Origin: a virus
Length of the DNA stretch: 62,761 nt
IMG/VR virus record: IMGVR_UViG_3300044769_000128
Location: 1-62,761 of that record
Direction: 5' to 3' (one strand)
Below are positions 26,431-62,761 of this stretch, piece by piece; the first letter of the stretch is position 1, and each line of letters starts with the position of its first letter. A program made the position numbers and the translations under genes. The notes under the pieces were generated by a model. That model made no database searches. It saw only the letters and a program-made list of their open reading frames with translations, and was not told the origin of the DNA.

Positions 26431-26447
26431 CCCTGGGAAGAATCGAA

Positions 26448-26726: not shown

Positions 26727-28415
26727 TTGCGCCGCACGGCGCGTCTCCTCGTCTACCAGCGAGACGAGGAACTGTTCTTCAAAGACCAGCTGCAAATCCA
26801 GACCAAGGCGATGACCAAGATTCGCTTTGCGCCCAACCCGGTCCAACTGCCGCTGATGAAGCTCGTCCGCGAGCAGAAAAAAACCATCGGCAAGATCCGG
26901 CTGATCATCTTCAAGTGCCGCCAACCGGGAATCAGCACTTGGTCGGCCGGCCTGGTCGCGCACAAGTATTTGCTCAACGACAACGTCTACGCCTTCACGA
27001 TCGCGCAGGACAAAAGCACCGTCGCCAATATCTTCAAGATGCACGAGATTTTCTACACCGGCATGGACGAGGATATCCGCCCGACGCAGCTGTATCACAC
27101 CAAGGGCACGGAGACCGTGGTAGGCGACGTCAGCACGCAAAGCCGGTTGCTGGTCGGCGAGGCGAAGAACATCAACGTCGGAACCGGGATGACCATCCAT
27201 GTGGTCCACGCTTCGGAATGCTGCCGCTACCCGTACCCGCAGCAGATCACCGACTCGCTGATCCCCGCGCTCTCGGACGCGCCCGGCACGGTTAGAATAT
27301 TCGAATCGACGGCGTTCCCCGCTCCCGGCGGCGTGTGGTTCAAATCGATGTGCGAGCGGGCCATGCGCGGGGAGACCGAATACAAGTTTCACTTCGTCGA
27401 GTGGTGGCGCATGCCGGAATACCAGATTCCGCTATCCAAGGGCGAGAAGCTGAAGCTTGGCGAGGAAGAAAAGACCCTGGTGCGCAGTCATGGTCTGTCG
27501 GTGGAGAACATCAAGTGGCGGCGCATGAAGATCGCCGATCTTGACGGCGACCTGGAAACCTTTCGCCAAAGCTACCCGATCACATTCGATGAAGGCTGGC
27601 AGCTCAAGGGGTCGACGGCCTTCGCCCGCGAGCGGCTGATGGAGATGCGCGAGATGATTCGCCCGCCACTGAAAACATTTTCAGTATTCCAAGATCGGCT
27701 GGTTCAAGATCCCGAAGGCGAGTTATCGGTATGGTTCGAACCGGAACCCGGTAAAACATACGATATTGGGGCCGACGTTGGCGGAGGCAGCGATATCGGC
27801 GACGCATCGACCGTTGAGGTCGTCGAACGCTATTCGCTGCGTCAGGTGGCCGAATGGCGCGGTTTTATCGACCCTGTGGATTTCGCTTACACGCTTGCCA
27901 CCATCGGGCGCTATTACAACAACGCCCAGATCGCGCCCGAGGTCGAGAAGTTCGGCATGGGCACGCTTGGAAGGCTTCAGCAGATATATACGAATATATT
28001 CGTTTGGAGGAAAAGAGATACGATCGTACCGGAATTCACGCATCAGTTGGGGTGGGCTACCAACCACACGTCCAAGCTGATGATCGTGGCGTTTGCCAGG
28101 CATTCGATCTGGCATCGCAAGGTCCAGGTCTATTCACTGGCTCTCTGGCAAGAACTAATGAACTATTCGCATGACACAACGCCGTCGGGGATGCACACCT
28201 ACAACGCGAGGCCAGGGGAGACCGACGATCTCGTGATGGCGTGGCTGATCGCGCTACAGACTTCCGACGATGAGAATATCTTGAAGTGGACCGAGCAGAA
28301 GATCGAGCTCCAACAGTCGCGCAAGAACGAGATCGCCGAGGAAGCTTATCGGGCGCAGCCGTTGACCGCGGTATCGCTCAGGGAACTGTCGGAGGAGATC
28401 GGGGATTGGAAGTGA
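26727..28415 (+). CDS. Terminase large subunit
   Basis: 562 aa. KCRQPGISTW Walker-A-like segment. Acidic nuclease-type motif DDLVMAWL near the C-terminus. TTG start (next in-frame ATG at 26811). Confidence 0.8.
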   Translation: MRRTARLLVYQRDEELFFKDQLQIQTKAMTKIRFAPNPVQLPLMKLVREQKKTIGKIRLIIFKCRQPGISTWSAGLVAHKYLLNDNVYAFTIAQDKSTVANIFKMHEIFYTGMDEDIRPTQLYHTKGTETVVGDVSTQSRLLVGEAKNINVGTGMTIHVVHASECCRYPYPQQITDSLIPALSDAPGTVRIFESTAFPAPGGVWFKSMCERAMRGETEYKFHFVEWWRMPEYQIPLSKGEKLKLGEEEKTLVRSHGLSVENIKWRRMKIADLDGDLETFRQSYPITFDEGWQLKGSTAFARERLMEMREMIRPPLKTFSVFQDRLVQDPEGELSVWFEPEPGKTYDIGADVGGGSDIGDASTVEVVERYSLRQVAEWRGFIDPVDFAYTLATIGRYYNNAQIAPEVEKFGMGTLGRLQQIYTNIFVWRKRDTIVPEFTHQLGWATNHTSKLMIVAFARHSIWHRKVQVYSLALWQELMNYSHDTTPSGMHTYNARPGETDDLVMAWLIALQTSDDENILKWTEQKIELQQSRKNEIAEEAYRAQPLTAVSLRELSEEIGDWK

Positions 28416-31329: not shown

Positions 31330-33105
31330 GTGCCGCACTTTGGAAAAGAAGATGAACTGATCCGCATGCTGACGCTCCTCGACGAGGAGTGTGAAACCCA
31401 ACGCGCTAAACTGGTCTCGCGCGCCAAGGACAACCTCGAAATTGTCCGCGGCCCCGGCCAGTGGAAGATGAAGCGCAACCCCTACTTTCTCTACAACGTC
31501 ATCGAAAAAAATATCGAAGCGAAAGTCTCGAAGTTAGCCGAAACCAAACCCACCATTCGCGTGATGCCGGACAGGCCCGGCGTGGAGGAAAGCTGCAATG
31601 TCATTCAGACGTGCGTGGAAGCGATATGGGATAATCGTCACATGGAGTCTCGGATTGAGCGGCTCGGTTATTTTGGGGCTATCATGGGGGCTGGCTTTGC
31701 AGGCACCCCATTTAATCGAGAACTTAACAACGGCGATGGTGATATTGATTTTGTCGCTAGGGATCCTCGCAGCGTCGGCTTCGATACTGCTATCGTGGAC
31801 TCTACCGATATCGACGGAGGAGAATTCGTCGAAATCCAAGACGTAATGCCGCTGGATATCATCCAGAACACGTTTCCTGGACGCGGCGGGCTAGTGACCC
31901 GCGACGACCGCCTCTCCGTTTTCGAAGAACCCGGTAAGACTCCCATGGGCGCGATCAAGACCGCGATCCAACGCTGGACCGGCGGCGTCCAGGGCGCGAC
32001 CAAGGGATCCGCCATCCCGCGCTGCATGGTGAAGGAATTCTGGATCAAGGATCGGCGGAGTTCCAGCGACAACGCGGGCCAATTCCCAATCATCGAAGGA
32101 CTCACGAGTTACGCACTGGACGGCAAGCCGTTTCCCGGCGGGAGAAGAATCCTCACGTCCATGGGCGACGGCGGCATGATAATCCTCAAAGACGAGTACA
32201 ACCCGTATTGGGACGGCGCACCGCCGACCGATATGCTCTCTTGGCGCGTCGATCTCGAATCGGCCTGGGGGCCGGACGAAGTCCAGCGCATGAAGCGGGT
32301 CCAAGAAGCGATCAATAGAATCGGCGACGCTTATACCAAAAATATGATTCTGAACTCTGTCGAGCGCATGGTGGTGGACAAAGGCGCGCTCGATAAAGAC
32401 GAACTCGACAAGCTATCGAACGAAGCGGCGCAGATCATCTACAAAAATCCCGGCCGGGAATTCAAGCACGACGTCCCGCCGCCGCTGCCGCCGGAAACCC
32501 TGCCGTTCATCAACCGCCTGATCGAACTCAGCGAAGTCATTTGCGGCACCGCCGACTCGGCTTTGCAAAAGCGCGTACCGTCGATTGTCACCGGACCGGC
32601 CGTCGAAGGACTGCAACTCGCCGTGGAGACCGCCCAGAGAGCGGTGGCGCGGCGACTCGAGGACTTCTTGCAGCGGGTCGGCCAAAAGCTGATCTCCCGC
32701 ATATTCCAGTATTACACCACCGATCGGCTGCTCCATTATGTCGGCCCGACCCAGGAATGGACCCAGTTCATGTTCGAACGGAGCAAAATCCTGGTGTCGA
32801 CCGATCATAAGAACGGCACCAAGAAGCTCCGAAATCCCGAGGATATTCGGAAAGCCTACATGGACTTCAAGTTCAAGGTCGAGCCGGGGTCGTCCCTCGC
32901 CGTGGCGCGGGCGCAACGAAGCATGATGAAATTTCAATTCGCGCAGCAAGGGTGGCTGCCCCCGTGGGAAGCCATGAAGGAACTGGGCATAGACAACGCC
33001 GAAGAAAAGTACAATGCTGCGCAAAAGGAAATCCAAGCGGGCCGCATGCAGGCGCCGACGCCCAGCAAACAGGGCGGGCAAATCTCAAAAGCGATCGGAA
33101 TGTAG
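31330..33105 (+). CDS. Portal protein (probable)
   Basis: 591 aa. It is the largest non-terminase ORF between the terminase and the scaffold/capsid genes. Called on position and size, with no signature checked. Confidence 0.6.
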   Translation: MPHFGKEDELIRMLTLLDEECETQRAKLVSRAKDNLEIVRGPGQWKMKRNPYFLYNVIEKNIEAKVSKLAETKPTIRVMPDRPGVEESCNVIQTCVEAIWDNRHMESRIERLGYFGAIMGAGFAGTPFNRELNNGDGDIDFVARDPRSVGFDTAIVDSTDIDGGEFVEIQDVMPLDIIQNTFPGRGGLVTRDDRLSVFEEPGKTPMGAIKTAIQRWTGGVQGATKGSAIPRCMVKEFWIKDRRSSSDNAGQFPIIEGLTSYALDGKPFPGGRRILTSMGDGGMIILKDEYNPYWDGAPPTDMLSWRVDLESAWGPDEVQRMKRVQEAINRIGDAYTKNMILNSVERMVVDKGALDKDELDKLSNEAAQIIYKNPGREFKHDVPPPLPPETLPFINRLIELSEVICGTADSALQKRVPSIVTGPAVEGLQLAVETAQRAVARRLEDFLQRVGQKLISRIFQYYTTDRLLHYVGPTQEWTQFMFERSKILVSTDHKNGTKKLRNPEDIRKAYMDFKFKVEPGSSLAVARAQRSMMKFQFAQQGWLPPWEAMKELGIDNAEEKYNAAQKEIQAGRMQAPTPSKQGGQISKAIGM

Positions 33106-36726: not shown

Positions 36727-37692
36727 ATGGCTCTCGACAACCGGCAGTTGGGCGAAATTTCCGCGATGACGATCGATTACAGAATCCCCGATCTCATCGA
36801 TAACTTTTTCACCAGTAACCCTCTCATCATCAAGCTTCTTCAGCGCGACAAGGTCGAAGTCGACGGCGGCGAGAAAATTCGCCAGCCGGTGATCTACGGC
36901 AAGCTGAACGGCGGGTCGTACACCGATCTCGACCTGTTCAATACCGACCGCAAAGAGACCGTCGCCGACATGATCTTCGAGTGGAAGCAGAAGTACGTCA
37001 ATATCACGATTTCCGGCCTCGAAGGTCTGAAGAACGCGGGCGCGGCCAAAATCCGCGACCAGGCCAATTACAAGATGGACAACGCCTCGATGACCGGCGC
37101 CGACCTGCTCGGCACGGCGATCTATGGCGACGGCACCGCGGACGGCGGCAAAGACATCACCGGCCTACGCGCGGCTCTCGACGACGGCACGACTTACACC
37201 ACCTACGGCGGCATCACCCGCAGTTCCACCACCGGCACAGAAGGCGCGGCGGTACGCGGCAACATCGACACCACCGGCGGCGTGTTCTCGTTGGGCTTTA
37301 TGAATACCAAGTGGTCGGCAGCGATCATCGCCAACGAGAAACCCGACCTGATCGTGACGACACAAACGATCTGGAACAAGTGGTGGGACCGGGTCCAGCC
37401 CTCGCAGCGCTTCAACGCGACCTCGAGCGGCAACCAGATGGCGAATGCCGGTTTCGACGTGATCCGCCATAACGGCGCGGACGTCGTCGTCGATCAGCAT
37501 TGCCCAGCGGGCCACGTCTATTTTCTCAATACCAAGTGGATCAAATTTATCACGCATACCAAGCGGCAGTGGTCGTTCACGGGTTGGAAATACCCGACTA
37601 ACCAGGACTCAATGATAGGTCAACTTCTTTGGGCCGGTGAACTCGTGGTGCAATCGCCGCGGCTTCAGTCCATGGTCACCAACGTAACCTAA
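36727..37692 (+). CDS. Major capsid protein (probable)
   Basis: 321 aa directly after the scaffold-like gene. Composition and length are typical of HK97-fold capsid proteins. No alignment was done. Confidence 0.65.
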   Translation: MALDNRQLGEISAMTIDYRIPDLIDNFFTSNPLIIKLLQRDKVEVDGGEKIRQPVIYGKLNGGSYTDLDLFNTDRKETVADMIFEWKQKYVNITISGLEGLKNAGAAKIRDQANYKMDNASMTGADLLGTAIYGDGTADGGKDITGLRAALDDGTTYTTYGGITRSSTTGTEGAAVRGNIDTTGGVFSLGFMNTKWSAAIIANEKPDLIVTTQTIWNKWWDRVQPSQRFNATSSGNQMANAGFDVIRHNGADVVVDQHCPAGHVYFLNTKWIKFITHTKRQWSFTGWKYPTNQDSMIGQLLWAGELVVQSPRLQSMVTNVT

Positions 37693-41767: not shown

Positions 41768-42388
41768 ATGGCTATCATACACGTTGCCAGACTCTCTCAG
41801 GCGCTCACTACGGCGGGCGTTGCCATTGTCAGCGTCAACCAGGACGGCATCGTCGAACCGGCGAATCTTCAAGCCGCGGCCGATCCGATCATCGCCGCCT
41901 TCGATGATAGCGAGGCGGCGAACAATACTTTTCTCAATTCACAGGCGCGCACGGTCGCCAGCGAGGACATCGACAGCAACAAAAATCCCATCAATAAGGA
42001 ATTGCGAGCGGCGGCCTCTTTAGTCGTCGATGAGGTCAACCTGCTCCGTGACGATGTCATCGGTATCGCCTCGCAGACGTGGGACCCGGCCAGCATGGCC
42101 AACGCGACCGGGCTGACCTCGCCAAACTTCACCGTAACGGGAGCGGCTTTTGGTGACATCGTTCACCCGATCGCGCCCTACACGCTCGCAGGCGTGACGG
42201 CGACCGCCTACGTCTCGGCGGCCAACACGGCGGTCATTCGTTTGCACAACGGCACGGGCGCTGCGGTCAACCTTGTCTCGGGAAGTTGGTCGGTGATGGT
42301 GCTGCGTCATACCGTCTTAACACCGCGCACAATGGCGCAAGCAAAAAGCGCGATGCAAAACAAAGTAAACGCGGGCGACGTGGACTAA
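41768..42388 (+). CDS. Tail-module hypothetical protein
   Basis: 206-aa ORF. Confidence 0.65.
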   Translation: MAIIHVARLSQALTTAGVAIVSVNQDGIVEPANLQAAADPIIAAFDDSEAANNTFLNSQARTVASEDIDSNKNPINKELRAAASLVVDEVNLLRDDVIGIASQTWDPASMANATGLTSPNFTVTGAAFGDIVHPIAPYTLAGVTATAYVSAANTAVIRLHNGTGAAVNLVSGSWSVMVLRHTVLTPRTMAQAKSAMQNKVNAGDVD

Positions 42389-42432
42389 ATGGCCACCCTT
42401 ACCGTAAAACAAGACGGCGGCGAGAGATAGCG

Positions 42433-45400
42433 ATGGCTAATTACTATGTCGCCCCCGGCGGTGTTGACTCCAATCCAGGCACAAGCGTTGGCTCGCCATT
42501 TCGTACAGTACAAAAAGCCGCCGATGTTGCGGTCGCGGGAGATACTTGTTTTTTCCGAAATGGAACTTATGGAACTCTTACCCTGCCGCGAAGCGGCACT
42601 TCGGGTAACCCCATCACGTTTAAAAATTATCCGGGCGAATTTCCCGTCTTAAATTACACGGTAGATCCTGACAACCGGCCAAACCCGGAAGTGTTTGTAA
42701 TATACTTGGATGGCCATTCATGGATTGTCCTTGACGGTCTACGCACTACAGGCGGCTCGATTGGCATCCTGGTCTATCCCGGTGCGAACAACAATCAGAT
42801 TCTCAACTGCGAAGCCAGCGACTCGCTCGGCACCGGAATTATGGTTTATGGTGGGAGTAGCAACAACCTTATCCGAAACTGTAAATCTCACGATAACTGC
42901 AAATTAAACTGGCCACGGGGGGCAATTTACGCCAGAGGCGGTATATGGGGAGCGGGTATCACAGTTCAGTCGGGCGGCACTAATAATATCGTAGAGGATT
43001 GCTATGTTTACTGGAACCACGGCGAGGGGCTGTCAACGGGAGTTGGAACAACAAATTCGATCTTTCGCCGCAATGTGGTTGCCGACAACTGGAGCGTGAA
43101 CCTGTATGTGGATGGAGCAAACGATACCACCTTCGACAGCAATCTAGTTTACCTGACCAATGAAGCCAAAAGCTGGCCTACCGTTGATCCACAAGGGCGC
43201 AACAAGAGTAATGCGTTGGGCATCGGCGCTGCAATAGAACCAGATTCGGACTTTATTGCAGCATTATCCGGTCTAAGGATCACTAGGAACGTGGTCGTAA
43301 AGTGCGATTCGGGGATTTGGTCATTCCCCGAAGATCCCGGTCACGTATTCTCTGATTGGCTCATTGCTAATAACACGCTGATTAGAAATGGGGACGGCCT
43401 CAAACTACTCAATTCGGGTGCGGGTATTTCAAGCATCGCATTCCAGAATAATATCATTATTGAGGATTTGGCTAGTGCCAATTCGCAAATGCAGGCCAAT
43501 CCCCTGCCGACGAGTTCAACATTTAGTAATAATATTTTTTATGGAATTGATTCTTTTTACATTGGCGGAGTTCAATACGGGTATGTGTCAGCATCGTCCC
43601 AATTAGGCTTTACGAATTCCCGCTTTGGCGTGGAACCTGGCTTAGTAAACAAAAATTATATCCCGCCCCGATTTTGGAGCGATCCCTCTCTTTCTGCGCC
43701 TTCGGCTATCGTCGCGTTAGCTGATCTTGTCTCGAATTTCTACTTAACTTCTGGGAGTGTAGCCATTAGTTTTGGCGTCGATGTCGGCTTGCCCTTTGTC
43801 GGCACGCCAGATGCGGGGGCGTTTGAATTTGCCCCTTCCCCAGGGCCAGTTACCCTCACCGTCAAACAGAACGGCACCGGCAATTATACCACGATCGGCG
43901 CGGCGCTGGCCAATATCGGTTACGCCGTGGCGGGTGCTGGCGCTGATGATATCGTGGAAGTGTATAACGGCACCTACAATACTGAGCGAGTCGTCAACAA
44001 CAATCTGCCGAGCGGCACTTCTTGGTCGCATCCGTTCCACCTACGGGTGGCACCAGGCAACACCGCTATCCTTAGCTCTTTCACCGGATACAACCTGATC
44101 AATCTCGACGCGGGCACCGGCGGCCCGCTCTACGCGATTATTGAAGGGTTCACCATCGATGGGGCCGCTACCACGGTTAATGCAGGCTTGGTCGTCATCA
44201 GCGGGTCTAGTTACGTCAGACTTATAAACTGCGAGATTAAAAACGCGAATATCTTTGGCGAAGTGGATGTGTCCAATAATCACGTTTACATCGGGATAGG
44301 CTCGAATAGCCATCACATCGAGATTCTAAACAACCAAATTCACGGCGGCATTTCAGCGGGGCACGGCGTCTACAACGAAGGCAGCAACAACATCATTCAA
44401 GGGAATAACATTTACGATATTGGCGGATACGGAATCCATAATTACAGTAATGTGCCCGGCAACACGCCCAACAATAATCTTTTTGCCGAAAACACGGTTT
44501 ATAATTGCGGCACTGTCCGAGCGACTGCGGCCGGTATTTTGGTCGGCATCGGCAGCGGCAACCAATGCTTCAAAAATGTCAGCTATAACAATCTCGGTGC
44601 GGACCTAGACGGCGGCGTCGGCATCGCGGTTAGCGGCACCGGCGCGCAGATTTATAATAATACCTGTTACGGGAACAGTTGGTACGGGCTCGATCTGTCG
44701 GGCTCGACCAGCGCCATCGTCAGAAACAACATCGCGTATCTGAACGGCACGAACATCGAGACCGGCGGCTCGAGCGGACTCACGCAGTCCAATAATTTCA
44801 CCAGCAATCCGACGTTCGTCAATGTCGGCACCGGCGATTTTCACTTACAAGCGTCGAGTGCGGCGATCAACTTCGGCGTCAATGTCGGCTTGCCGTATAG
44901 CGGTTCGGCACCGGACGCGGGAGCGTTTGAGTATAGCGCTCCGGTGGTCCCGCCGACCGCGCCGACTCATCAGTACAACAACACGACGAAGTTCTACGAG
45001 CTATTGCTCGCCGACTCCTCCGTAGTCTCCTCGTCCGGTGTGCACTGCTTGCAGCCGGTCAACGGCCCCAACGGGTTTGTCACTTTCGTCAAGGCGGGAA
45101 ACGTCGCGCAAACAGTAGCGCGGAAAATATCGACGGGCGCTGAGTACATCAATTCGGAGCAGACCGCGGGTATAGGCGGCGGCTATAATCGGTGGGCCAA
45201 CGACGGCTCGCGCTACATCATCGGCGCGCGGCGGGTGACTCATGGCAAGCAATTTTTCTATCGCGACTTGGTGGCGTATATCTTCGACACCCAGGCGCCG
45301 GAGAAGTGGCTGAACTTCGCTACGCTTGGGCGACCGACCCTGGATATTTTCCGAGCGGTTGGAGCAGGGCAAAAACCTTTGGCGCTCTGGGTCAAGAACG

Positions 45401-45660
45401 GCAATCAAGTCACCGGCTTTGAAAATAGCGATCCTCTGGGCATCGTCCGGCGCTTTACTTTCATCAGCGCGACCCTGATCGATTTCGTCCTTGAGCAACG
45501 TATCGGAGACAACGACGGCAACATCACGGCGGCATTTGTCCGGTGCCAGCGCCAATTCACGCTCGCCACCGGGGCGATGAGCGCGATCAGCATCGTGGCG
45601 ACACACACCGTCAACGCGGCGATCCCGACAGCGCCCGCCTGGCTCTACGTGGCAACCTGA
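42433..45660 (+). CDS. Tail spike/fibre with two tandem right-handed beta-helix (pectate-lyase-like) modules
   Basis: YYVAPGGVDSNPGTSVGSPFRTVQKA start. Repeated NN-I-x-xN rungs. Each module ends in the PDAGAFE(F/Y) motif. The second module starts TLTVKQNGTGNYTTIGAAL. Confidence 0.8.
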   Translation: MANYYVAPGGVDSNPGTSVGSPFRTVQKAADVAVAGDTCFFRNGTYGTLTLPRSGTSGNPITFKNYPGEFPVLNYTVDPDNRPNPEVFVIYLDGHSWIVLDGLRTTGGSIGILVYPGANNNQILNCEASDSLGTGIMVYGGSSNNLIRNCKSHDNCKLNWPRGAIYARGGIWGAGITVQSGGTNNIVEDCYVYWNHGEGLSTGVGTTNSIFRRNVVADNWSVNLYVDGANDTTFDSNLVYLTNEAKSWPTVDPQGRNKSNALGIGAAIEPDSDFIAALSGLRITRNVVVKCDSGIWSFPEDPGHVFSDWLIANNTLIRNGDGLKLLNSGAGISSIAFQNNIIIEDLASANSQMQANPLPTSSTFSNNIFYGIDSFYIGGVQYGYVSASSQLGFTNSRFGVEPGLVNKNYIPPRFWSDPSLSAPSAIVALADLVSNFYLTSGSVAISFGVDVGLPFVGTPDAGAFEFAPSPGPVTLTVKQNGTGNYTTIGAALANIGYAVAGAGADDIVEVYNGTYNTERVVNNNLPSGTSWSHPFHLRVAPGNTAILSSFTGYNLINLDAGTGGPLYAIIEGFTIDGAATTVNAGLVVISGSSYVRLINCEIKNANIFGEVDVSNNHVYIGIGSNSHHIEILNNQIHGGISAGHGVYNEGSNNIIQGNNIYDIGGYGIHNYSNVPGNTPNNNLFAENTVYNCGTVRATAAGILVGIGSGNQCFKNVSYNNLGADLDGGVGIAVSGTGAQIYNNTCYGNSWYGLDLSGSTSAIVRNNIAYLNGTNIETGGSSGLTQSNNFTSNPTFVNVGTGDFHLQASSAAINFGVNVGLPYSGSAPDAGAFEYSAPVVPPTAPTHQYNNTTKFYELLLADSSVVSSSGVHCLQPVNGPNGFVTFVKAGNVAQTVARKISTGAEYINSEQTAGIGGGYNRWANDGSRYIIGARRVTHGKQFFYRDLVAYIFDTQAPEKWLNFATLGRPTLDIFRAVGAGQKPLALWVKNGNQVTGFENSDPLGIVRRFTFISATLIDFVLEQRIGDNDGNITAAFVRCQRQFTLATGAMSAISIVATHTVNAAIPTAPAWLYVAT

Positions 45661-47132
45661 TGGCGTTCCAACTCCAATCACAAAACGATTTCGAGAATAG
45701 CGGTCTTTACGGCGGCTCCGTCCAAGACTTAAACGATATTGTTTTCGACCGGCAGAGTTACACCGCCACGTATCCGGGGCTGCGGAGTTTTACGTCGATA
45801 TACTTCGTGCCGTTCGGTGGCATGACCGTCGGCTCGCCCGCGACTTCCTTCGTCATTGATGTCACCGCGCAGCAGATTTTTATGATCCGCGGCGGCAACA
45901 TGAAGATCATCGCGGGGATGTACGGATTTACCGGCTACCGGGACGGCACCGGCAGCCAAGCGCTGTTAGGCATGGGAGGTTTTCAGGAAGCGTATGGGTA
46001 CTGCGTTGACTCGCTGGGCGCGCTCTATGTCACCGACACCAAGAACGGCAAGATTCGCAAGCTCGTCGAGCAGGGTAACGGCACCTGGACGGTATCGACC
46101 TACGCGACTTACAGCACCACTGCCATCGCCTGTGACGCCGCCGATAATATCTGGACCACCAGCGGCTCGACTCTGATCAAGATTTTTCCCGGCGGCGCGA
46201 CGCAAACCTATCAGACCGGCATCAGCAACATCAATCAGATCGCCATGCTGGCCAACGGCCATATCCTGATCGTCACTCGCGCGAACGCCTGGGATGCCAT
46301 TTACGATTTTAATCCCGCCAATAGCTTAGTCATTCGCCGCGCCGGCATGACCGAAGCGGAAGTCAACAATTTTTTCGCCACCAACGGGTTTATCCTCGTC
46401 GACGGCCCGGCAATCAATGGGGCGACGTATCACAGCCCCCAGTTCGCTTATTGGAACGCCGACGGCACGGAAATCTGGATGGGCGGTGGCGACGAGCGTC
46501 AGCTGCGACGCTATCTCGCGTCTACCGGGCGGGTCGATTCGCTATTTCCCGACGGCGCTTTTTACGAAACTCAGGTTCGAATCGGCGGCTCTACCAACGA
46601 CAATCCAAGCCTGCCCTTTTATATGGTCTCGCCCGGCGGCAAACAGGCTAACGGCTATCCGTGGGACTTCGGCCGCTCCGGTGCCATCACCGCAGCGCTG
46701 AAAGTCGTTCCGGTCGATATCGGCGACCCCGCGCTGTTCAACGGCGCTTCATTCATCAGCCAAACGATTCCCACGACCATGGTGGCCGATCAGCAGTATC
46801 CGGTGACCGTGACGATGCGAAACACCGGATCGACGACTTGGACTCCGGCGACCGACTACCGGCTGGGCACGCAGAATCCCCAGGACAACACCACCTGGCT
46901 CAATACCAATCGCGTGTTCATGGCGGCGGGAACCTCCGCCGCGCCAAATACCAATTACACGTTTAGCTTCACCGTGCGCGCGCCGACCGCAGCGGGCAAT
47001 TACAATATGCAGTTCAAGATGGTGCGCGAAGCGGTGGAGTGGTTCGGTGCGCTCTCGGCCAACGCCGTCGTCGCGGTGGCGGCACCGCAGTCCGGCGCAT
47101 TGATCCCCGTAACCGTGCAGATCAGGCTCTAA
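45660..47132 (+). CDS. Tail-fibre-associated protein: NHL/beta-propeller-like region plus C-terminal Ig-like module
   Basis: LYVTDTKNGKIRKL-type blades. The C-terminal ~115 aa is homologous to two modules in the next gene. Confidence 0.65.
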   Translation: MAFQLQSQNDFENSGLYGGSVQDLNDIVFDRQSYTATYPGLRSFTSIYFVPFGGMTVGSPATSFVIDVTAQQIFMIRGGNMKIIAGMYGFTGYRDGTGSQALLGMGGFQEAYGYCVDSLGALYVTDTKNGKIRKLVEQGNGTWTVSTYATYSTTAIACDAADNIWTTSGSTLIKIFPGGATQTYQTGISNINQIAMLANGHILIVTRANAWDAIYDFNPANSLVIRRAGMTEAEVNNFFATNGFILVDGPAINGATYHSPQFAYWNADGTEIWMGGGDERQLRRYLASTGRVDSLFPDGAFYETQVRIGGSTNDNPSLPFYMVSPGGKQANGYPWDFGRSGAITAALKVVPVDIGDPALFNGASFISQTIPTTMVADQQYPVTVTMRNTGSTTWTPATDYRLGTQNPQDNTTWLNTNRVFMAAGTSAAPNTNYTFSFTVRAPTAAGNYNMQFKMVREAVEWFGALSANAVVAVAAPQSGALIPVTVQIRL

Positions 47133-50100
47133 TGGCAACTTACCCAATCCAACTGTCACAGCCGTTTCGCCAAGGCGATGCTATCTCGCCGGTGTGTGCC
47201 ATTGCGGGCGTCGCCATCCCGACCCAGACCAATATCCTTTGCCGATGGCCCGACGGCTCGGTGAAGCTCGCGGTGTTCACGGTGATCTTGACCGGCAACG
47301 CTGGCGAGCTCGTCACCCTGCAATTCAAGGAAGGCACGCCGCTCGGCACCACGCCGGGAACGTCGATCAGCTTCGATGCGTCGATGGAAATCTTAGGCGT
47401 GCAGCGATTCAAGAGCGCGCTTCCCGCCACGGTTTATATCAGCGGGCCGCTGGCGACGACTTACATTCATGCCGATCATACCGGAGCGAACGATCTTCAG
47501 GGCATCAGCCCGACCAAGTGCCGGCCGATCTTTCACGTCACCCATTGGCACACGCAGAATAAAGTCAAAATCCGCTTCATTGGCGAATGCACCAATATCG
47601 CGGCTATGGGTCAATGCGGCCTCGGCGACATCGCGACTCCCATGCGGCTAAGAATCAACGGCGTGGAAGTGTATTCGCTCTCGGGCCGCCAATGGTTCGA
47701 TCAGATGATGGCCTACGCTTCGCGCTTCACGCGGGTGTTTTGGTTAAACGGCGCTCCGACAGCACCCGCGGCGATCAAGCACAACGTCGCCTATATCGGT
47801 CAGACCGGCGCGTCGCATACCTTCGATCACACGGTTGTCGTTTCGGAAGCCGCCGTGGCGTCCATGTATACGCAATGGACCAACGTCGTCGCGGCTGGCA
47901 ATCACCAAATCTTGAAACCCGGCCTGTGGGTCAAGCCCATGGGCAACGCGGGCGGCAGCGATTACGTCGGCCCGTGGACCACCTGGGTCATGCTTTGGCT
48001 CTACACCGGCGACCGGCGCATGCTCGAAGTGTGCGAGGGCCAAGCCAATCTCGGCTGTCAATGGCCGATGCACTACCGCGAGAACGGCGCTGCGGGCGAT
48101 TTCTACTCGGTAGAAAACCATACCTCGTGCCAACTGTTAAACATCGCGTCGAACTTGGCACGCAGCGGCGTGACCGCCGTCGACGATCTCGATAGCTGGG
48201 GCTGGAATCCTGATACCTCCCATCAGCCAGACCACTACTTTGGGATGTATTTATTGCTCGCGCATGAATTCTTCTATTTTGAGCAAGCTGCGTTTTGGGC
48301 GTCGTGGTCGACAGCCTTCTACAATCATGCGGGCATCACCGCTGAATTCGGCTGCGGTCCCACCGGCGCTGAGGGCGGCATCCCTGGACTTAACTCGCTG
48401 ACGATCAGAGGCCAAGCGTGGGTGTTTCGCTCGCGCTGCGAAGTGGCGGCCTACTGCCCGGACGCGCGCCTCGCCGAGAAAAACTATTTCAACCGCATGG
48501 CGATCGACGCCATCGAGATTTGGGAAGGTGAGCGCAACATCACCACCACGCCGTATAACGGGAGCGCCAACTGGAATTGGGGCCGCTCCATCACGCCGTC
48601 GGAGCACCCGCTGCGCTACTGGCAACACGGCAACGGTAATTTTATTCAGAATCCCAACGGCACGGCCAACGGTGACGTGGATCCGTCGCGGGCGAGCGCG
48701 GGCTTGAGCACTTGGGAGCAGAACTTTTTGGCGCTGGCTTTGATCCGCGGGCTGGAACTCGGCTTTGCCACCGGCGCGCTGATCGCTTGGCTGTCGTACA
48801 ATATCCAAGGACAACAAGAAAACTTAACTTGGAATATCGCTTCGAACCGTTCACCGACGCGCGACCCGTCCGGCAACTTCTTTACCACCTGGGCCGATGT
48901 GCTGGCCTGCTACGACGTCACCTGGGCGGCCAACGAGGGCATCGATTACGACGCGCTGTTTTTGGCGAAAGTCAGCGACTTAAATCACGGCTATACCAAT
49001 ATTGCGCGAGCAGCTGCGAGAGCGATGAACGTCGAATCCGCATGGATGGCGACCAACGGCTTGCCGGATTACACAACCAATCCCAAGTGGGCGATCAAGC
49101 TCCGGCTCATCGCACCGCCGCCACCGCCTGATCCACCGCCGCCACCCGAGGAGCCTCCTCCACCCCCGCCGCCGCCGACTCCGTCCAATAACGCAGCGGC
49201 GTATGTGACGCAACTGAATGTCCCGATCACGATGACGCTGGGGCAAGTGGTTTCGGTGACGATCCGCATGCAGAACATCGGCGATACGACTTGGAGCGAG
49301 GCGTCGCTGTATCGACTTTGCAGTATGAACCCCATCGATAATACGACTTGGACCGCGCCGCTGAATCGGGTTTCTATCGTCGGCACGGTTGCGCCGAATG
49401 CGACTTATGATTTTGTTTTCAACATGACCGCGCCCGCGGTAGCCGGTACGTACAACTTCCAATGGCAGATGGTGCAGGAGTTGGTCGAGCGCTTCGGCCA
49501 ACTCACGCAGAACGTCGCCGTCGTGGTCGCGCCGCCGGAACCGCCGCCGCCGACGCCGCTGCTTAATGGGGCGCAATATATCATTCAGACCGATGTGCCA
49601 ATGACGATGACGGTGGGCGATGCGGCGCTGGTGTCGATCACCATGAAGAACACCGGCGATACCGATTGGAACACCGTGGGCGGATACCATCTCGGCAGCC
49701 AAAATCCCCAGGACAATTTCACCTGGGGCGTTCACCGCGCGGAGATCACCGGCACAGTGGCGCCGAACGCAAGCTACACGTTTACGTTTCAGATCACCGC
49801 GCCGGCGACCCCTGGCACCTATAACTTTCAATGGAAGATGGTCCAGGACTTCGTCGAGTGGTTCGGCAACTTTACCCAAAACGTCGCCATCGTGGCTATT
49901 CCCGTTACAGTGATGACGACCTACTACGTGGCGACCACGGGCAACAATGCAAATCCCGGCACGATCGGTCAGCCATTCCTTACACTTCAGAAAGCGCACG
50001 ACATCGCCAATCCCGGCGATACGATCTACATGCGCGGCGGGACTTATCTAATGCCGACGCAAACATCGATCACTAGAAGCGGCAGTAGTGGAAGCCGTAT

Positions 50101-51127
50101 TAGTGTTTTCAACTATCCCAGCGAAGTTCCAATCTTGGATGGATCTTCTAATCCAAATACAGGCGGTCATTCAATTATTCGGGTGAACACCAGCGTATCG
50201 TGGTGGCACTTCAAGGGGCTAGAGGTCAAAAGCAGCCCCGGATACGGCTTTTATTTGGTTGGGAATGCAAGCAACATTATCATCGAGAACTGCAATGTTC
50301 ACCATAACCTTCGATTAGACAATAGCGGCGGAGGTATTCAGATAGAGTTTGGCAGTAACATTCTGATATTGAACAACGATTTGCATCACAACGGCCACGC
50401 TGGATCCGAGGGTGGAAGTGGAAGCGACATAGGTTCGCAACTGACCGGAAACGTCTTTCGCGGTAATCGTGCATGGCGCAACAACGACAACGGCATGGCT
50501 TTTTTTGATGCCGCGAATGTTTTGATCGAGAATAATTGGGTATGGGAGAACGGCTACAACGATGCTTTGGTCAACATACCACCCGGTGATGGCGTTGGGT
50601 TTAAGTTAGGCGGCAGCGGTACGGGCGACGGTAATCACATAGTACGGAATAACTTGGCGTGGAGAAATTATGGGAATGCGTTTGATGCTAACAGCGCAAA
50701 CTTACCCATGAATGTTTTTAACAATACAGCTTATGATAATGGCGGCGCTAACTTTCATTTCTTTAATGGAACCGTCGCCTATGTTCTGAAGAATAATCTA
50801 TCATTTGCTCCGGGGGTCATAAGTATCGGCCCATCTACGCTCGCCACGTTTAATTCGTGGAATTTGTCCGTAACTGTTAATTCAGCAGATTTCACTACCC
50901 TAGATTTCACCGCCAACCTTGGCGCACGAAATGCCGATGGCTCATTGCCGGTTAGCGACTTCCTCAAACTCGCCTCTGGCAGCGACCTTATCGACAAGGG
51001 TACAGATGTTGGCATCGCTTATACCGGCATTGCGCCCGATCTTGGAGCCTACGAACACGACTTCGTCGCGCCGCCTCAGCCGCCAACGGTTCCCGATCCG
51101 CCGTCAAGCTTAACGGTCACAATGTAA
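47132..51127 (+). CDS. Large tail fibre/spike (1331 aa): unknown N-terminal domain, poly-Pro linker, two Ig-like modules, C-terminal beta-helix module
   Basis: PPPPPDPPPPPEEPPPPPPPPTP linker. TYYVATTGNNANPGTIGQPFLTLQKA beta-helix start. Ends in the PDLGAYEH motif, then PPSSLTVTM. Confidence 0.8.
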   Translation: MATYPIQLSQPFRQGDAISPVCAIAGVAIPTQTNILCRWPDGSVKLAVFTVILTGNAGELVTLQFKEGTPLGTTPGTSISFDASMEILGVQRFKSALPATVYISGPLATTYIHADHTGANDLQGISPTKCRPIFHVTHWHTQNKVKIRFIGECTNIAAMGQCGLGDIATPMRLRINGVEVYSLSGRQWFDQMMAYASRFTRVFWLNGAPTAPAAIKHNVAYIGQTGASHTFDHTVVVSEAAVASMYTQWTNVVAAGNHQILKPGLWVKPMGNAGGSDYVGPWTTWVMLWLYTGDRRMLEVCEGQANLGCQWPMHYRENGAAGDFYSVENHTSCQLLNIASNLARSGVTAVDDLDSWGWNPDTSHQPDHYFGMYLLLAHEFFYFEQAAFWASWSTAFYNHAGITAEFGCGPTGAEGGIPGLNSLTIRGQAWVFRSRCEVAAYCPDARLAEKNYFNRMAIDAIEIWEGERNITTTPYNGSANWNWGRSITPSEHPLRYWQHGNGNFIQNPNGTANGDVDPSRASAGLSTWEQNFLALALIRGLELGFATGALIAWLSYNIQGQQENLTWNIASNRSPTRDPSGNFFTTWADVLACYDVTWAANEGIDYDALFLAKVSDLNHGYTNIARAAARAMNVESAWMATNGLPDYTTNPKWAIKLRLIAPPPPPDPPPPPEEPPPPPPPPTPSNNAAAYVTQLNVPITMTLGQVVSVTIRMQNIGDTTWSEASLYRLCSMNPIDNTTWTAPLNRVSIVGTVAPNATYDFVFNMTAPAVAGTYNFQWQMVQELVERFGQLTQNVAVVVAPPEPPPPTPLLNGAQYIIQTDVPMTMTVGDAALVSITMKNTGDTDWNTVGGYHLGSQNPQDNFTWGVHRAEITGTVAPNASYTFTFQITAPATPGTYNFQWKMVQDFVEWFGNFTQNVAIVAIPVTVMTTYYVATTGNNANPGTIGQPFLTLQKAHDIANPGDTIYMRGGTYLMPTQTSITRSGSSGSRISVFNYPSEVPILDGSSNPNTGGHSIIRVNTSVSWWHFKGLEVKSSPGYGFYLVGNASNIIIENCNVHHNLRLDNSGGGIQIEFGSNILILNNDLHHNGHAGSEGGSGSDIGSQLTGNVFRGNRAWRNNDNGMAFFDAANVLIENNWVWENGYNDALVNIPPGDGVGFKLGGSGTGDGNHIVRNNLAWRNYGNAFDANSANLPMNVFNNTAYDNGGANFHFFNGTVAYVLKNNLSFAPGVISIGPSTLATFNSWNLSVTVNSADFTTLDFTANLGARNADGSLPVSDFLKLASGSDLIDKGTDVGIAYTGIAPDLGAYEHDFVAPPQPPTVPDPPSSLTVTM

Positions 51128-51137
51128 GGAGAAAGTT

Positions 51138-51434
51138 ATGGCAGTCAACGTTACCTGGAAGGACAATTCGAACAATGAAGCGGGCTTCGTCTTGGAGCGC
51201 CAGTTAAACGGCGACCCTTTCTCGGTTATCGCGCAGAGCCTTCCCGCCGGCACGATTTCCTACGAGGATACAACGGCGACCGGCTCGACCGAGGGGGACA
51301 ATGTTTACACGTATCGGGTCAAGGCGTTCAACACCGCGGGGGCATCGGAATACTCCAACGTGAGCAGCGTCACCATTCCGCAGATCGTGACGATTCCGAA
51401 TGCGCCGAGTGATTTAACGGCAACGGCCCTTTGA
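51138..51434 (+). CDS. Stand-alone fibronectin type III domain protein
   Basis: AAGGAG RBS. VTWKDNSNNEAGFVLER...YTYRVKAFNTAGASEYS. Ends at a TGA followed by C. Confidence 0.7.
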   Translation: MAVNVTWKDNSNNEAGFVLERQLNGDPFSVIAQSLPAGTISYEDTTATGSTEGDNVYTYRVKAFNTAGASEYSNVSSVTIPQIVTIPNAPSDLTATAL

Positions 51435-51449
51435 CCCAATGAGATAAAG

Positions 51450-51665
51450 TTGTCCTGGCGGGACAACTCTGAAAACGAGATCGGCTTCGAGGTCGAGCGA
51501 ACCGCCAATGGTGTAATCAAACTGTTACAGCAATATGCCGATCAGACCACGCTCGTCGATACCGGGCTTAAAAAAAACACCTGGCACTACTACCGAATCC
51601 GTGCCCTCGGCGTGGCGGGACCGTCGCCGTGGACTAACAAGGTGAGGGTGAGAACGCTACGCTAA
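51450..51665 (+). CDS. Second FN3 domain, in frame with 51138..51434 across one TGA (read-through extension or fragment)
   Basis: LSWRDNSENEIGFEVER...YYRIRALGVAGPSPWT. Only a TTG with weak SD is available as its own start. Confidence 0.5.
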   Translation: MSWRDNSENEIGFEVERTANGVIKLLQQYADQTTLVDTGLKKNTWHYYRIRALGVAGPSPWTNKVRVRTLR

Positions 51666-51674: not shown

Positions 51675-52013
51675 ATGGATTTTTTTACTTCGCTCTTATG
51701 GGCCGCCGAAAAGGTCGACCCGAACCTGGTCGCAAACATCGGTCAGAAAGCAGCCGACGATGCCGAGATCGCGGCCCGCTACGCGCTTTATTCCTTGATC
51801 GTGCAGTCGGTGGTGCCGATCGCAACTGCGTGGATCGCGTTCAAGCAAGTGCAGTTGAACCGCACGATGAGTCACGTCGAGCACAATACCAACTCGATCA
51901 AAGACGAACTGGTTGCGCAGGCGCTTCAGCTTGGAAAAACCGAGGGTAATTTAGAGGGACGAGCCGAACAAACTGCCGAGAGGCAAAGAGAGAAGGTTTC
52001 AAAAGGAGGATAG
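51675..52013 (+). CDS. Membrane-anchored coiled-coil protein (lysis-cluster candidate)
   Basis: One TM (YALYSLIVQSVVPIATAWIAF), then a charged helix. Confidence 0.5.
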   Translation: MDFFTSLLWAAEKVDPNLVANIGQKAADDAEIAARYALYSLIVQSVVPIATAWIAFKQVQLNRTMSHVEHNTNSIKDELVAQALQLGKTEGNLEGRAEQTAERQREKVSKGG

Positions 52014-52014
52014 A

Positions 52015-52200
52015 ATGGTATTCCCCATAGTTTCGATTTTAGTCGCGCTGATCCTAATCGCGCTGATCTGGTGGGTGATCGATCAGTTGGTGACCGACGA
52101 ATTTATAAGAAAAATCGCCAGGGTCGTGATGGTGGTTTTGTGTGTTTTATATATCGTGAGCCTGATTAGCGGCGTCGGGCCGGCGATCAGTTTTAGGTAG
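52015..52200 (+). CDS. Holin-like two-TM small protein
   Basis: 61 aa with two hydrophobic helices. Called on position and topology only. Confidence 0.5.
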   Translation: MVFPIVSILVALILIALIWWVIDQLVTDEFIRKIARVVMVVLCVLYIVSLISGVGPAISFR

Positions 52201-62634: not shown

Positions 62635-62761
62635 ATGCAATGCCAGCCTCCGCAATGGTTTTATACGGGGCGATCTCCCGGCCCGAGGACGATGTCAGCG
62701 TGTCGGGCGGCGCCATCGACGTTACGCACCGGCCGCTCCGCTACGAACTCTCCTGGCGCTC
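62635..62761. repeat. Right copy of the exact 127-bp terminal direct repeat
   Basis: Identical to 1..127. Confidence 0.95.

What the first reader, a model, noticed from the sequence alone, without database searches (positions are those of the whole stretch)
51092..51665. Tandem FN3 domains at the end of the fibre locus are cut twice: by a stop+SD+start junction with a frame change, and by a single in-frame TGA-C
The 1331-aa fibre ends ...PDPPSSLTVTM-TAA. P-S-x-L-T-V-T is the canonical first strand of an FN3 domain. Eleven nt later, after AAGGAG and in the +1 frame, the next ORF begins MAVNVTWKDNSNNEAGFVLER..., which is the rest of that FN3. The domain therefore appears split between two genes.

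That ORF ends ...PNAPSDLTATAL-TGA. The same frame continues PNEIKLSWRDNSENEIGFEVER..., a second FN3 whose first strand lies before the stop. The downstream piece has only a TTG with poor SD as a possible start. The stop context TGA-C is regarded as a weak termination signal in E. coli.

The options are programmed read-through giving 98-aa and ~175-aa products, gene fission in progress, or sequencing errors. TGA is otherwise a normal stop in this genome (for example at 1272 and 2351).
Basis: partly seen in the sequence, partly recalled or inferred. Interest (0 to 1): 0.7.

Follow-up and report, generated by a model that had tools for sequence, protein, structure and literature searches.

The report
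Leaky stop splits phage fibre FN3
A small gene behind a phage tail-fibre gene carries a conserved, weak in-frame TGA stop that most likely lets some ribosomes read on to add a second fibronectin-type domain, and its first domain lacks a strand that the fibre's own tail appears to carry.

Summary
Both features are real and neither is a sequencing error. The TAA–AAGGAG–ATG junction (51125–51140) and the in-frame TGA-C (51432–51435) recur in 14 contigs from separate runs or assemblies, forming five lineages that differ by up to about 45% in protein sequence.

Junction 1 is an ordinary, conserved gene boundary. Spacing and frame vary between relatives (overlap, 7–12 nt; frame 0, +1, +2), which excludes recoding. 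The upstream protein nevertheless always ends in a selected FN3 strand-A-like tail (PPSSLTVTM), and the next protein starts at strand B.

Junction 2 differs. The stop is always TGA followed by C and always in frame. The 76 codons after it never vary in length and are under purifying selection (dN/dS 0.11–0.26). Closest relatives without the stop have Ser (TCG) there. True terminators at both ends of the gene drift among TAA, TAG and TGA.

TGA is a normal stop elsewhere, and the complete 62.6-kb genome encodes no tRNA.

Best explanation: programmed UGA read-through gives a 98-aa and a 175-aa product. Restart at TTG 51450 cannot be excluded. No protein evidence exists.

Speculative extra: the split FN3 is a strand-donation dock joining fibre and accessory protein.

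The parts
47132..51127 (+). Tail-fibre or depolymerase-like gene (1331 aa). It has an N-terminal region shared with relatives, two N_BRCA1_IG Ig-like domains and a Pel9A-like right-handed beta-helix, and ends in the strand-A-like tail.
   Evidence: ORF list. Pfam PF16158, PF22842 and PF13229. 67% identity over 795 aa to the L008 fibre, which lacks the beta-helix but keeps the tail.
51098..51124 (+). C-terminal tail PPSSLTVTM of the fibre. It resembles FN3 strand A and is the proposed donor strand for the next protein's first domain.
   Evidence: Adding it to the 98-aa ORF extends the fn3 HMM match from positions 17-83 to 1-83 and from 14.7 to 21.6 bits. The peptide is conserved despite synonymous codon changes, including AGC/TCC Ser, in every non-signal-peptide lineage whose junction was read. 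It sits behind different preceding domains.
51125..51140 (+). Junction 1: TAA stop, AAGGAG Shine-Dalgarno sequence (51126-51131), 6-nt spacer, ATG (51138). This is a true gene boundary.
   Evidence: The stop-to-start distance is -1 (TAATG overlap), 7, 9, 10, 11 or 12 nt in relatives. The frame relation is 0, +1 or +2. The stop is TAA or TGA.
51138..51434 (+). 98-aa ORF: FN3-1 strands B-G, a linker, and strand A of FN3-2 (PSDLTATAL, 51405-51431), ending in TGA.
   Evidence: AF2 pLDDT 84: six strands, tail unstructured. Foldseek hits are all FN3.
51432..51435 (+). In-frame TGA followed by C, the proposed read-through site. It lies at the end of strand A, at the A-B turn of FN3-2.
   Evidence: It is TGA-C in all five stop-bearing lineages. 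Fused relatives have TCG Ser and no C at +4. The position maps to Ser104, at the end of strand A, in the AF2 model of fused homologue P0007 (pLDDT 95).
51435..51665 (+). FN3-2 strands B-G: 76 codons plus TAA. It is translated only by read-through, or from TTG 51450.
   Evidence: It is open and exactly 76 codons long in every stop-bearing locus that reaches its end. dN/dS is 0.11-0.26, and the binomial P against neutrality is 4e-4 to 5e-7. The fn3 HMM reaches 30.1 bits only when the pre-TGA strand is included.
51450..51452 (+). TTG, the only possible in-frame restart codon (rival explanation). Only a GAG lies upstream as a weak Shine-Dalgarno sequence.
   Evidence: It is conserved in all TGA lineages, and also in fused L014. 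The product would lack strand A and most of strand B (fn3 positions 19-83, 14.5 bits).
51448..51468 (+). 9-bp hairpin AGUUGUCCU-GGC-GGGACAACU, starting 13 nt after the UGA. It is a possible read-through stimulator, with weak evidence.
   Evidence: dG is -11.6 kcal/mol and z is only -1.8 against shuffles. It is present in all TGA lineages with one G-C to A-U compensatory change. It overlaps the conserved LSWRDN codons and a probable recombination tract.

Best explanation
The window is a complete tailed-phage genome. Directly after its last fibre gene lies a small gene for a tandem-FN3 accessory protein, and its expression is split in two ways.

(1) The fibre gene and the accessory gene are separate, translationally coupled cistrons (TAA, strong SD, ATG). 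The accessory protein's first FN3 natively starts at strand B. The fibre ends in a conserved strand-A-like peptide.

(2) Inside the accessory gene, at the A-B turn of the second FN3, sits a conserved weak stop, UGA-C. Most ribosomes terminate there and release a 98-aa protein: FN3-1 plus a free strand-A tail. A minority insert an amino acid and continue for 76 codons, producing a 175-aa two-domain protein. The inserted residue is most probably Trp, through near-cognate tRNA-Trp as at other leaky bacterial UGAs. The phage would thus make two isoforms in a fixed ratio from one gene. This parallels the way other phages append Ig-like domains to a fraction of structural subunits by frameshifting.

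Shown here: the conservation, reading frame, stop context and selection. Inferred: that read-through occurs, how efficient it is, which residue is inserted, and that the products are part of the virion.
For: - Not an artefact. An identical junction appears in an independent Logan assembly. The same two junctions appear in diverged contigs from ENA, JGI and Logan, 14 contigs in all.
- Invariant stop. The internal stop is always TGA with C at +4 (CTT TGA CCC or GTC TGA CAG), even where the following amino acid changes from Pro to Gln. By contrast, the true terminator at junction 1 is TAA or TGA, and the terminator after FN3-2 is TAA-A, TGA-A, TAG-T, TAG-C or TAG-G.
- Invariant frame. The stop and the downstream ORF are always in frame, with exactly five codons before the TTG. 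Spacing and frame at the genuine stop-start junction 1 vary.
- Selection. Post-TGA dN/dS is 0.11-0.26 within and between TGA clades (P 4e-4 to 5e-7). Length is fixed at 76 codons.
- Intact relatives. P0007, P0009 and L015 (58-64% identity) are intact fusions with Ser (TCG) at the TGA position.
- Structure. The full fn3 match (30-36 bits) and the seven-strand AF2 domain require residues on both sides of the stop.
- No code change. TGA terminates large genes here. The genome is complete, with a 127-nt terminal overlap, and has no tRNA gene.
- Background. UGA is the leakiest bacterial stop, read through at 1e-3 to 1e-2 (PMC4989110), and is read as Trp (PMC7918605). From my own knowledge: Poole, Brown and Tate (1995, EMBO J) rank UGA-C the weakest E. 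coli termination signal, and it is the context used at the prfB shift site.
- Precedent. Phages append Ig-like domains to a fraction of structural proteins by recoding (PMC5009743).
Against: - No protein, ribosome-profiling or reporter data exist. The host is unknown.
- The TTG at 51450 is conserved in all TGA lineages, so termination followed by restart is not excluded.
- Conservation of TGA-C across five lineages is only modestly improbable under neutrality. My rough estimate is about 0.1, given a total tree length of about 1.5-1.8 synonymous substitutions per site.
- The window's gene is mosaic: FN3-1 is nearer the other TGA clade and FN3-2 is nearer the fused clade. Part of the nucleotide identity just after the TGA may therefore be shared ancestry rather than selection.
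- The downstream hairpin is not significant against shuffles (z -0.3 to -1.8).
- Programmed read-through is, to my knowledge, not established for dsDNA phage structural genes. My literature searches found no example.
Confidence: 0.6

Rival explanations
1. Termination and restart. Ribosomes stop at the UGA and some re-initiate 15 nt downstream at TTG 51450. This gives a separate 71-aa polypeptide, which the tail of the 98-aa protein then completes in trans. That would be a second split of the same kind as junction 1.
For: TTG is conserved in all five TGA lineages, and a GAG or GGAG lies 6-7 nt upstream. Gene callers annotated the 71-aa ORF in L006 and L007. The family already tolerates one FN3 split at the A|B boundary. 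Both breaks fall within 1-2 residues of the same structural position.
Against: - The TTG product would lose strand A and also most of strand B (EIKL). Its fn3 match covers only positions 19-83 at 14.5 bits.
- Real starts in this genome have strong AGGAG-type SDs. Here the GAG is simply the conserved Glu codon, which is also present in fused relatives.
- TTG is also present in fused L014.
- TTG lies inside the 5' arm of the hairpin.
- The stop-to-TTG distance and frame never vary, unlike the true stop-start junction 1.
- The five codons in between keep FN3-like residues, x-(N/T)-E-I-(K/R/D), with synonymous changes.
Confidence: 0.17
2. UGA is decoded specifically rather than by leaky near-cognate reading. 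The candidates are a host or phage suppressor tRNA, a host genetic code in which UGA is a sense codon, or selenocysteine insertion directed by the downstream hairpin.
For: A conserved UGA has a small hairpin 13 nt downstream, which is roughly the distance of a bacterial SECIS element. The host is unknown, so a host-encoded suppressor cannot be excluded.
Against: - TGA ends many large genes in the same genome, including late structural genes, and large ORFs contain no internal TGA.
- The complete genome has no tRNA gene.
- There is no Rfam match near the site.
- Homologues have Ser, not Cys, at the position.
- The hairpin is a plain 9-bp stem with a 3-nt loop and is not significant.
Confidence: 0.05
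3. A nonsense mutation or gene decay: FN3-2 is an untranslated remnant, and only the 98-aa protein matters.
For: FN3-2 evolves somewhat faster than FN3-1 at non-synonymous sites (dN 0.31-0.46 against 0.19 between the window and the other TGA clade). Many conserved in-frame stops in mobile elements are pseudogenes (PMC7918605).
Against: - dN/dS is 0.11-0.26, with P down to 5e-7 against neutrality, including within the window's own clade (10.5 synonymous against 6.5 non-synonymous differences).
- There are no indels or secondary stops in 76 codons, in any stop-bearing locus that covers them, at dS up to >2.
Confidence: 0.03
4. A sequencing or assembly error at one or both junctions.
For: None was found. 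A homopolymer A8 lies at 51580-51587, but it is not at either junction.
Against: The sequence is identical in an independent Logan assembly. Both junctions are reproduced in 13 further contigs from other runs, with surrounding substitutions.
Confidence: 0.01

Closest known systems
Ig-like (including FN3) domains appended to a fraction of phage capsid or tail subunits by programmed ribosomal frameshifting. Examples are T3 gp10B, Lactobacillus phage A2 and Listeria phages A118, A500 and PSA (Fraser et al. 2006, as reviewed in PMC5009743).
   Same: One phage gene in the late/structural region gives a short product and a C-terminally extended one. The extension is an Ig-superfamily domain, and the ratio would be set by a recoding event.
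   Different: No frame change occurs here: the extension is in frame behind a UGA, so the event would be read-through. The recoding site lies inside the domain, at the A-B turn, rather than before it. The carrier is a small accessory protein, not a capsid or tail-tube protein. Virion location is not shown.
Leaky UGA read-through that produces the Qbeta A1 (coat-extension) protein.
   Same: A weak UGA would be read, presumably by tRNA-Trp, in a few percent of passes. This would give a minor extended structural protein alongside the major short one (my own knowledge, plus PMC4989110 and PMC7918605 for UGA leakiness).
   Different: Qbeta is an ssRNA phage and its context is UGA-A. Here the genome is a dsDNA tailed phage, the context is UGA-C, and the stop interrupts a folded domain. 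There is no sequence relationship between the two.
Donor-strand complementation or exchange in chaperone-usher and type V pili, and its engineered analogue, the split Ig-like domain pair SpyTag/SpyCatcher.
   Same: An Ig-like fold is encoded without one edge strand. A strand-like peptide sits at the terminus of the partner polypeptide. FN3 N-terminal strand swapping has been observed crystallographically (PDB 4m6a, found).
   Different: There is no homology to pilins, no chaperone or usher, and no isopeptide chemistry. Here the missing strand is A (N-terminal) and the donor is a C-terminal tail. No physical complex has been tested. Two relatives with signal peptides lack any donor tail upstream (L216, L219), so FN3-1 may fold without it.
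The prfB (RF2) +1 frameshift site, CUU UGA C.
   Same: The identical heptanucleotide CTT TGA C occurs in the window clade and in L012. It exploits the same slow-terminating UGA-C.
   Different: The +1 frame ends after four codons (DPMR*). There is no upstream SD-like stimulator. L009 and L212 have GTC TGA C. The conserved coding frame is frame 0.

Membership tests
Fibronectin type III domain (Pfam PF00041) | HMM match at or above the gathering score (25 bits) across the whole profile | tested here: met
   FN3-2, read across the TGA, scores 30.1-36.4 bits over profile positions 2-83 of 84. FN3-1 alone scores 14.7 bits over positions 17-83. With the fibre tail it scores 21.6 bits over positions 1-83, still below the cut-off.
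Fibronectin type III domain (Pfam PF00041) | Seven-strand beta-sandwich fold | tested here: met
   In the AF2 model of fused homologue P0007 (pLDDT 95.3), FN3-2 has seven strands and FN3-1 has six, with no strand A. The window's 98-aa product has six strands (pLDDT 84). All top Foldseek hits are FN3 domains, with TM 0.6-0.69.
Programmed stop-codon read-through | A coding ORF continues in frame beyond the stop and is under purifying selection | tested here: met
   The ORF is 76 codons, always in frame and with no indels. dN/dS is 0.11-0.26 and P is 4e-4 to 5e-7.
Programmed stop-codon read-through | Stop identity and a leaky context are conserved among relatives | tested here: met
   TGA-C occurs in 5 of 5 lineages (14 contigs). 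Neighbouring true terminators drift among TAA, TAG and TGA. The statistical weight is modest, because the lineages are few.
Programmed stop-codon read-through | A stimulatory downstream RNA structure | tested here: inconclusive
   A 9-bp hairpin lies 13 nt after the UGA in all TGA lineages, with one compensatory pair. Its z-score is only -0.3 to -1.8, and it overlaps conserved codons.
Programmed stop-codon read-through | The extended polypeptide is detected and the inserted residue identified | not testable with these tools
   This needs mass spectrometry, a reporter assay or ribosome profiling.
Recoding-appended Ig-like domains of phage structural proteins | The carrier is a virion structural protein | tested here: inconclusive
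   The gene sits directly after three fibre or depolymerase-like genes and before small membrane proteins, in a phage with TerL, portal and major head protein. There is no PHROG hit and no virion data. Some relatives carry signal peptides.
Recoding-appended Ig-like domains of phage structural proteins | The extension is reached by a -1 or +1 frameshift | tested here: not met
   The extension is in frame 0. The +1 frame stops after four codons.
Donor-strand complementation systems | The acceptor Ig-like domain is encoded without an edge strand | tested here: met
   FN3-1 starts at strand B in all family members. The fn3 match covers profile positions 17-83, and AF2 gives six strands.
Donor-strand complementation systems | The partner polypeptide carries a matching donor strand | tested here: inconclusive
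   The upstream protein ends in PxxPS(S/N)L(T/S)V(T/I)M in every non-signal-peptide lineage whose junction was read. This holds whatever domain precedes the tail, with synonymous variation. The tail is also present in 2 of 4 signal-peptide loci. It completes the fn3 HMM alignment. It is absent upstream in L216 and L219.
Donor-strand complementation systems | A physical complex forms, with the strand inserted into the acceptor | not testable with these tools
It needs AF-Multimer, pull-down or cryo-EM.
Stop-codon-reassigned phages (TGA as a sense codon) | Many in-frame TGAs in late genes, often with a suppressor tRNA | tested here: not met
   There is a single in-frame TGA. TGA terminates large late genes. 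The complete genome has no tRNA. Other same-frame TGA-C neighbours (26043-26681) are ordinary separate genes.
Selenocysteine insertion (bacterial SECIS) | A SECIS hairpin after the UGA, and Cys or Sec in homologues | tested here: not met
   There is no Rfam hit. Homologues have Ser. The hairpin is a generic one.

The most novel reading that the evidence does not exclude
The FN3 domains here may form a natural split-domain docking system. Under this reading, the fibre's C-terminal strand-A peptide inserts into the strand-A-less FN3-1 of the accessory protein and fastens it non-covalently to the fibre tip.

Termination at UGA would leave the 98-aa product with an equivalent free strand-A tail: APSDLTATAL, compared with PPSSLTVTM on the fibre. 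That tail could capture the next 98-aa subunit, building a titin-like chain of FN3 beads by donor-strand exchange. The rarer read-through product would use that strand in cis to complete FN3-2, and so would cap the chain. Read-through frequency would then set the chain length.

The same tail would work as a portable 'tag'. That would explain why it stays at the extreme C-terminus when fibre domains are swapped: a beta-helix is present in the window clade and absent in L008, L012, L013 and L015, and an unrelated M11-like protein carries the tail in L014.
Probability: 0.15. Interest if true: 0.9.

Novelty: new variant of a known kind. Interest (0 to 1): 0.66.

Why it matters
If read-through is confirmed, this would be a clear case of programmed UGA read-through in a dsDNA tailed phage. 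Recoding of structural genes in such phages is so far known almost only as frameshifting. The recoding site would also sit inside a folded domain rather than between domains.

The case shows that gene callers lose real coding sequence here. The window's own annotation has no FN3-2 gene, and the family is annotated as 98-aa 'titin' fragments.

The conserved strand-A tail on otherwise unrelated upstream proteins suggests a modular, possibly strand-donation-based way of attaching accessory domains to receptor-binding proteins. That would matter for understanding host-range modules. It could also offer a natural split-FN3 tag/catcher pair for protein engineering.

The locus is small, well defined and easy to test.

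Tried and rejected
- Close relatives in GenBank phages (blastn and tblastn) and in IMG/VR with the fibre C-terminus: none useful.
- IMG/VR, metagenome and genome scans with the FN3x2 alignment. They returned almost only generic tandem-FN3 proteins at 30-45% identity. Only L015 was a true relative. No isolate or MAG gave a host.
- Frameshift or 'hop' at junction 1. Rejected because the frame relation is 0, +1, +2 or an overlap in different lineages, and the ORF98 frame has a stop nine codons upstream.
- prfB-like +1 shift at CTT TGA C. Rejected because the +1 frame gives DPMR*, and other lineages have GTC TGA C.
- Code reassignment or a suppressor tRNA. Rejected.
- SECIS or any known RNA family. 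No hit.
- Nucleotide-level conservation after the TGA as evidence of an RNA signal. Codon identity at conserved residues is already 55-67% gene-wide, and the window's gene is mosaic around this point, so this was not used as evidence.
- Structure prediction of a fibre-tail plus ORF98 chimera, to test strand docking.
- Literature searches for phage read-through in tail fibres and for donor-strand complementation in phage fibres. They found no precedent.
Full report
**Observation**

- The 1331-aa fibre ORF (47132..51127) ends ...PDPPSSLTVTM-TAA.
- AAGGAG overlaps the stop (51126-51131), and ATG at 51138 opens a 98-aa ORF in the +1 frame.
- That ORF ends ...PNAPSDLTATAL-TGA (51432-51434) followed by C.
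- The same frame continues for 76 codons to TAA at 51663-51665.

Pfam supports the domain reading.
- The 98-aa ORF alone aligns only to fn3 profile positions 17-83 (14.7 bits).
- With the fibre tail in front, the alignment becomes 1-83 (21.6 bits).
- The TTG-initiated 71-aa piece aligns to positions 19-83 (14.5 bits).
- The segment spanning the TGA aligns to positions 2-83 at 30.1-36.4 bits, above the 25-bit cut-off.

AlphaFold2 of the 98-aa product gives six strands (B-G) and an unstructured tail (pLDDT 84). All top Foldseek PDB hits are FN3 domains.

**Context**

The window is a tailed-phage genome. It has a large terminase (26727-28415), a portal (31330-33105) and a major head protein (36727-37692). 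Three large beta-helix/Ig/NHL fibre-like genes (42286-51127) precede the locus. The contig has a 127-nt terminal overlap, so the assembly is complete and circular. It encodes no tRNA. GC content is 56.6%. TGA ends about 31% of ORFs, including large late genes, so the genetic code is standard.

**Not an artefact**

The 98-aa protein is found on an independent Logan assembly that is 100% identical across 651 nt. It is also found on three diverged contigs from other samples (L005-L007). Protein searches and contig look-ups added three more diverged lineages that stop at the same place:
- L008-L011 (72% identity over the 98 aa),
- L012 (73%),
- L212-L215 (62%).

In all 14 contigs the internal stop is TGA followed by C (CTT TGA CCC or GTC TGA CAG). 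In every one that extends far enough, FN3-2 is open, in frame and exactly 76 codons long.

**Junction 1 is a normal gene boundary with an unusual conserved tail**

Across relatives the stop-to-start distance is -1 (TAATG overlap in L013 and L015), 7, 9, 10, 11 or 12 nt. The frame relation is 0, +1 or +2, and the stop is TAA or TGA. This excludes frameshifting or read-through there. The +1 frame in the window is incidental.

What is conserved is the peptide. The upstream protein ends PPSSLTVTM (APSNLSVIM in L012 and L212, APVNLTVN in L014, APTALAIS in L220). Synonymous variation is abundant, including Ser encoded by AGC in one lineage and TCC in another.

The tail stays at the extreme C-terminus whatever precedes it:
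- a Pel9A-like beta-helix in the window clade;
- an N_BRCA1_IG domain directly in L008/L009, L012, L013 and L015;
- an unrelated M11-peptidase-like membrane or secreted protein in L014.

The downstream protein always begins at strand B.

The wider family consists mainly of 190-215-aa proteins in which a signal peptide is followed immediately by strand B. Two of the four such loci examined have the upstream tail (L014, L220/221) and two do not (L216, L219). FN3-1 without strand A is therefore a family trait, and the tail may not be essential for folding.

A regex scan of the roughly 115 generic tandem-FN3 loci held at that point found no other A|B split. That regex also missed the family's own L013-L015 junctions, so this negative is only approximate.

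**Junction 2 behaves differently from a terminator**

The closest relatives without the stop (P0007/L013, P0009, L015; 58-64% identity) are intact two-domain proteins. They have Ser (TCG) at the TGA position and no C at +4.

In the AF2 model of P0007 (pLDDT 95.3), that Ser is the last residue of strand A, at the A-B turn. This is within 1-2 residues of where junction 1 cuts FN3-1.

The post-TGA codons are under purifying selection both within and between the TGA clades:
- dN/dS is 0.11-0.26;
- within the window's own clade there are 10.5 synonymous against 6.5 non-synonymous differences (P = 4e-4);
- between clades P falls to 5e-7.

Two internal controls support a special role for this stop. 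The true terminator after FN3-2 drifts (TAA-A, TGA-A, TAG-T, TAG-C, TAG-G), and so do the junction-1 terminator and its spacing. The internal TGA-C and its frame never change.

**Mechanism**

The best reading is programmed leaky termination. UGA is the leakiest bacterial stop, read through at 1e-3 to 1e-2 and decoded as Trp (PMC4989110; PMC7918605). From my own knowledge, UGA-C is the weakest E. coli context (Poole et al. 1995) and is the context used in the prfB shift site. CTT TGA C is literally that heptamer. Here, however, the +1 frame ends after four codons and other lineages have GTC TGA C, so a +1 frameshift is rejected.

The outcome would be a major 98-aa and a minor 175-aa isoform.

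A 9-bp hairpin starts 13 nt after the UGA (51448-51468, -11.6 kcal/mol). It is present in all TGA lineages with one compensatory pair. It is not significant against shuffles (z -0.3 to -1.8). It also overlaps the conserved LSWRDN codons and a probable recombination tract: the window's FN3-1 is nearer the other TGA clade, and its FN3-2 is nearer the fused clade. I therefore give it little weight.

**Rivals**

- *Restart at TTG 51450.* This cannot be excluded, because the codon is conserved. Against it: the product would lack strand A and most of strand B; the only 'SD' is the conserved Glu codon; TTG also occurs in a fused relative; and spacing and frame are invariant.
- *Code reassignment, a suppressor tRNA or selenocysteine.* All are unsupported.
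- *Decay or error.* Both are refuted.

**Comparison with known systems**

The closest known kind is the appending of Ig-like domains to a fraction of phage structural subunits by programmed frameshifting (PMC5009743). Mechanistically, the closest is the Qbeta A1 UGA read-through.

This case differs in three ways. It uses in-frame UGA-C read-through in a dsDNA phage. The site lies inside the domain. The first domain is itself split across a gene boundary. Literature searches found no phage-fibre read-through and no donor-strand precedent. FN3 N-terminal strand swapping does exist structurally (PDB 4m6a).

**Speculative extension**

The fibre tail and the tail of the 98-aa product are equivalent strand-A peptides. 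They could dock or polymerise strand-A-less FN3-1 units by strand donation, with the read-through isoform acting as a cap. I give it about 15%.

**Verdict**

- Sequencing error and gene decay are refuted.
- Junction 1 is a conserved gene boundary with a selected strand-A-like tail.
- Junction 2 is most likely a programmed UGA-C read-through site (confidence about 0.6).
- This is a new variant of a known kind and is experimentally tractable.

Noticed in passing
window 1-127 and 62635-62761: The first ~127 nt are repeated at the end of the contig (a k-mer-sized overlap). The window is therefore a complete, circularly assembled phage genome of about 62.6 kb. ARAGORN finds no tRNA genes in it.
   Followed up: partly
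window 49950-51097 compared with L008:1486-4692, L012, L013 and L015: Fibre modularity. The window clade carries a ~355-aa Pel9A-like beta-helix between the second N_BRCA1_IG domain and the PPSSLTVTM tail. Related fibres (67% identical over 795 aa) end directly after the Ig-like domain with the same tail. The domain insertion or loss leaves the tail at the extreme C-terminus.
   Followed up: partly
window 51138-51665: The accessory gene is mosaic. FN3-1 is closest to the other TGA-bearing clade (dS 0.77-0.86). FN3-2 is closest to the fused, Ser-containing clade (dS 0.88 to L015, against >2 to L009 and L012). This implies recombination near or just after the TGA.
   Followed up: partly
L014:521-2447, and proteins P0008, P0010, P0017-P0020 and P0023: Most members of the wider family have a signal peptide immediately before strand B of FN3-1. 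In L014 the upstream M11-peptidase-like protein also has an N-terminal hydrophobic segment and ends in a strand-A-like tail. The family may therefore act outside the cytoplasm in some phages.
   Followed up: partly
window 51429-51435: CTT TGA C is identical to the bacterial prfB (RF2) +1 frameshift heptanucleotide. Here the +1 frame gives only DPMR-stop, and there is no upstream SD-like stimulator.
   Followed up: yes
window 26043-28415: Two small ORFs and the large terminase gene lie in one frame, separated by TGA-C stops. On inspection they are ordinary separate genes: a membrane protein, then an ORF with its own ATG. There are no family hits.
   Followed up: yes
window 51675-52200: Directly after the FN3 gene come a 112-aa ORF and a 61-aa membrane protein (weak PF28077 THIVI_2564 hit). 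The same arrangement occurs in L013 and L212-L214, and an M15 peptidase lies further on in L012. This is probably the start of the lysis cassette.
   Followed up: no
window 51450-51665: The source (JGI) annotation of this contig appears to have no gene for FN3-2. The exact 71-aa TTG product is absent from the protein collection, and the 98-aa product is named 'titin'. Annotation pipelines lose this coding sequence.
   Followed up: partly
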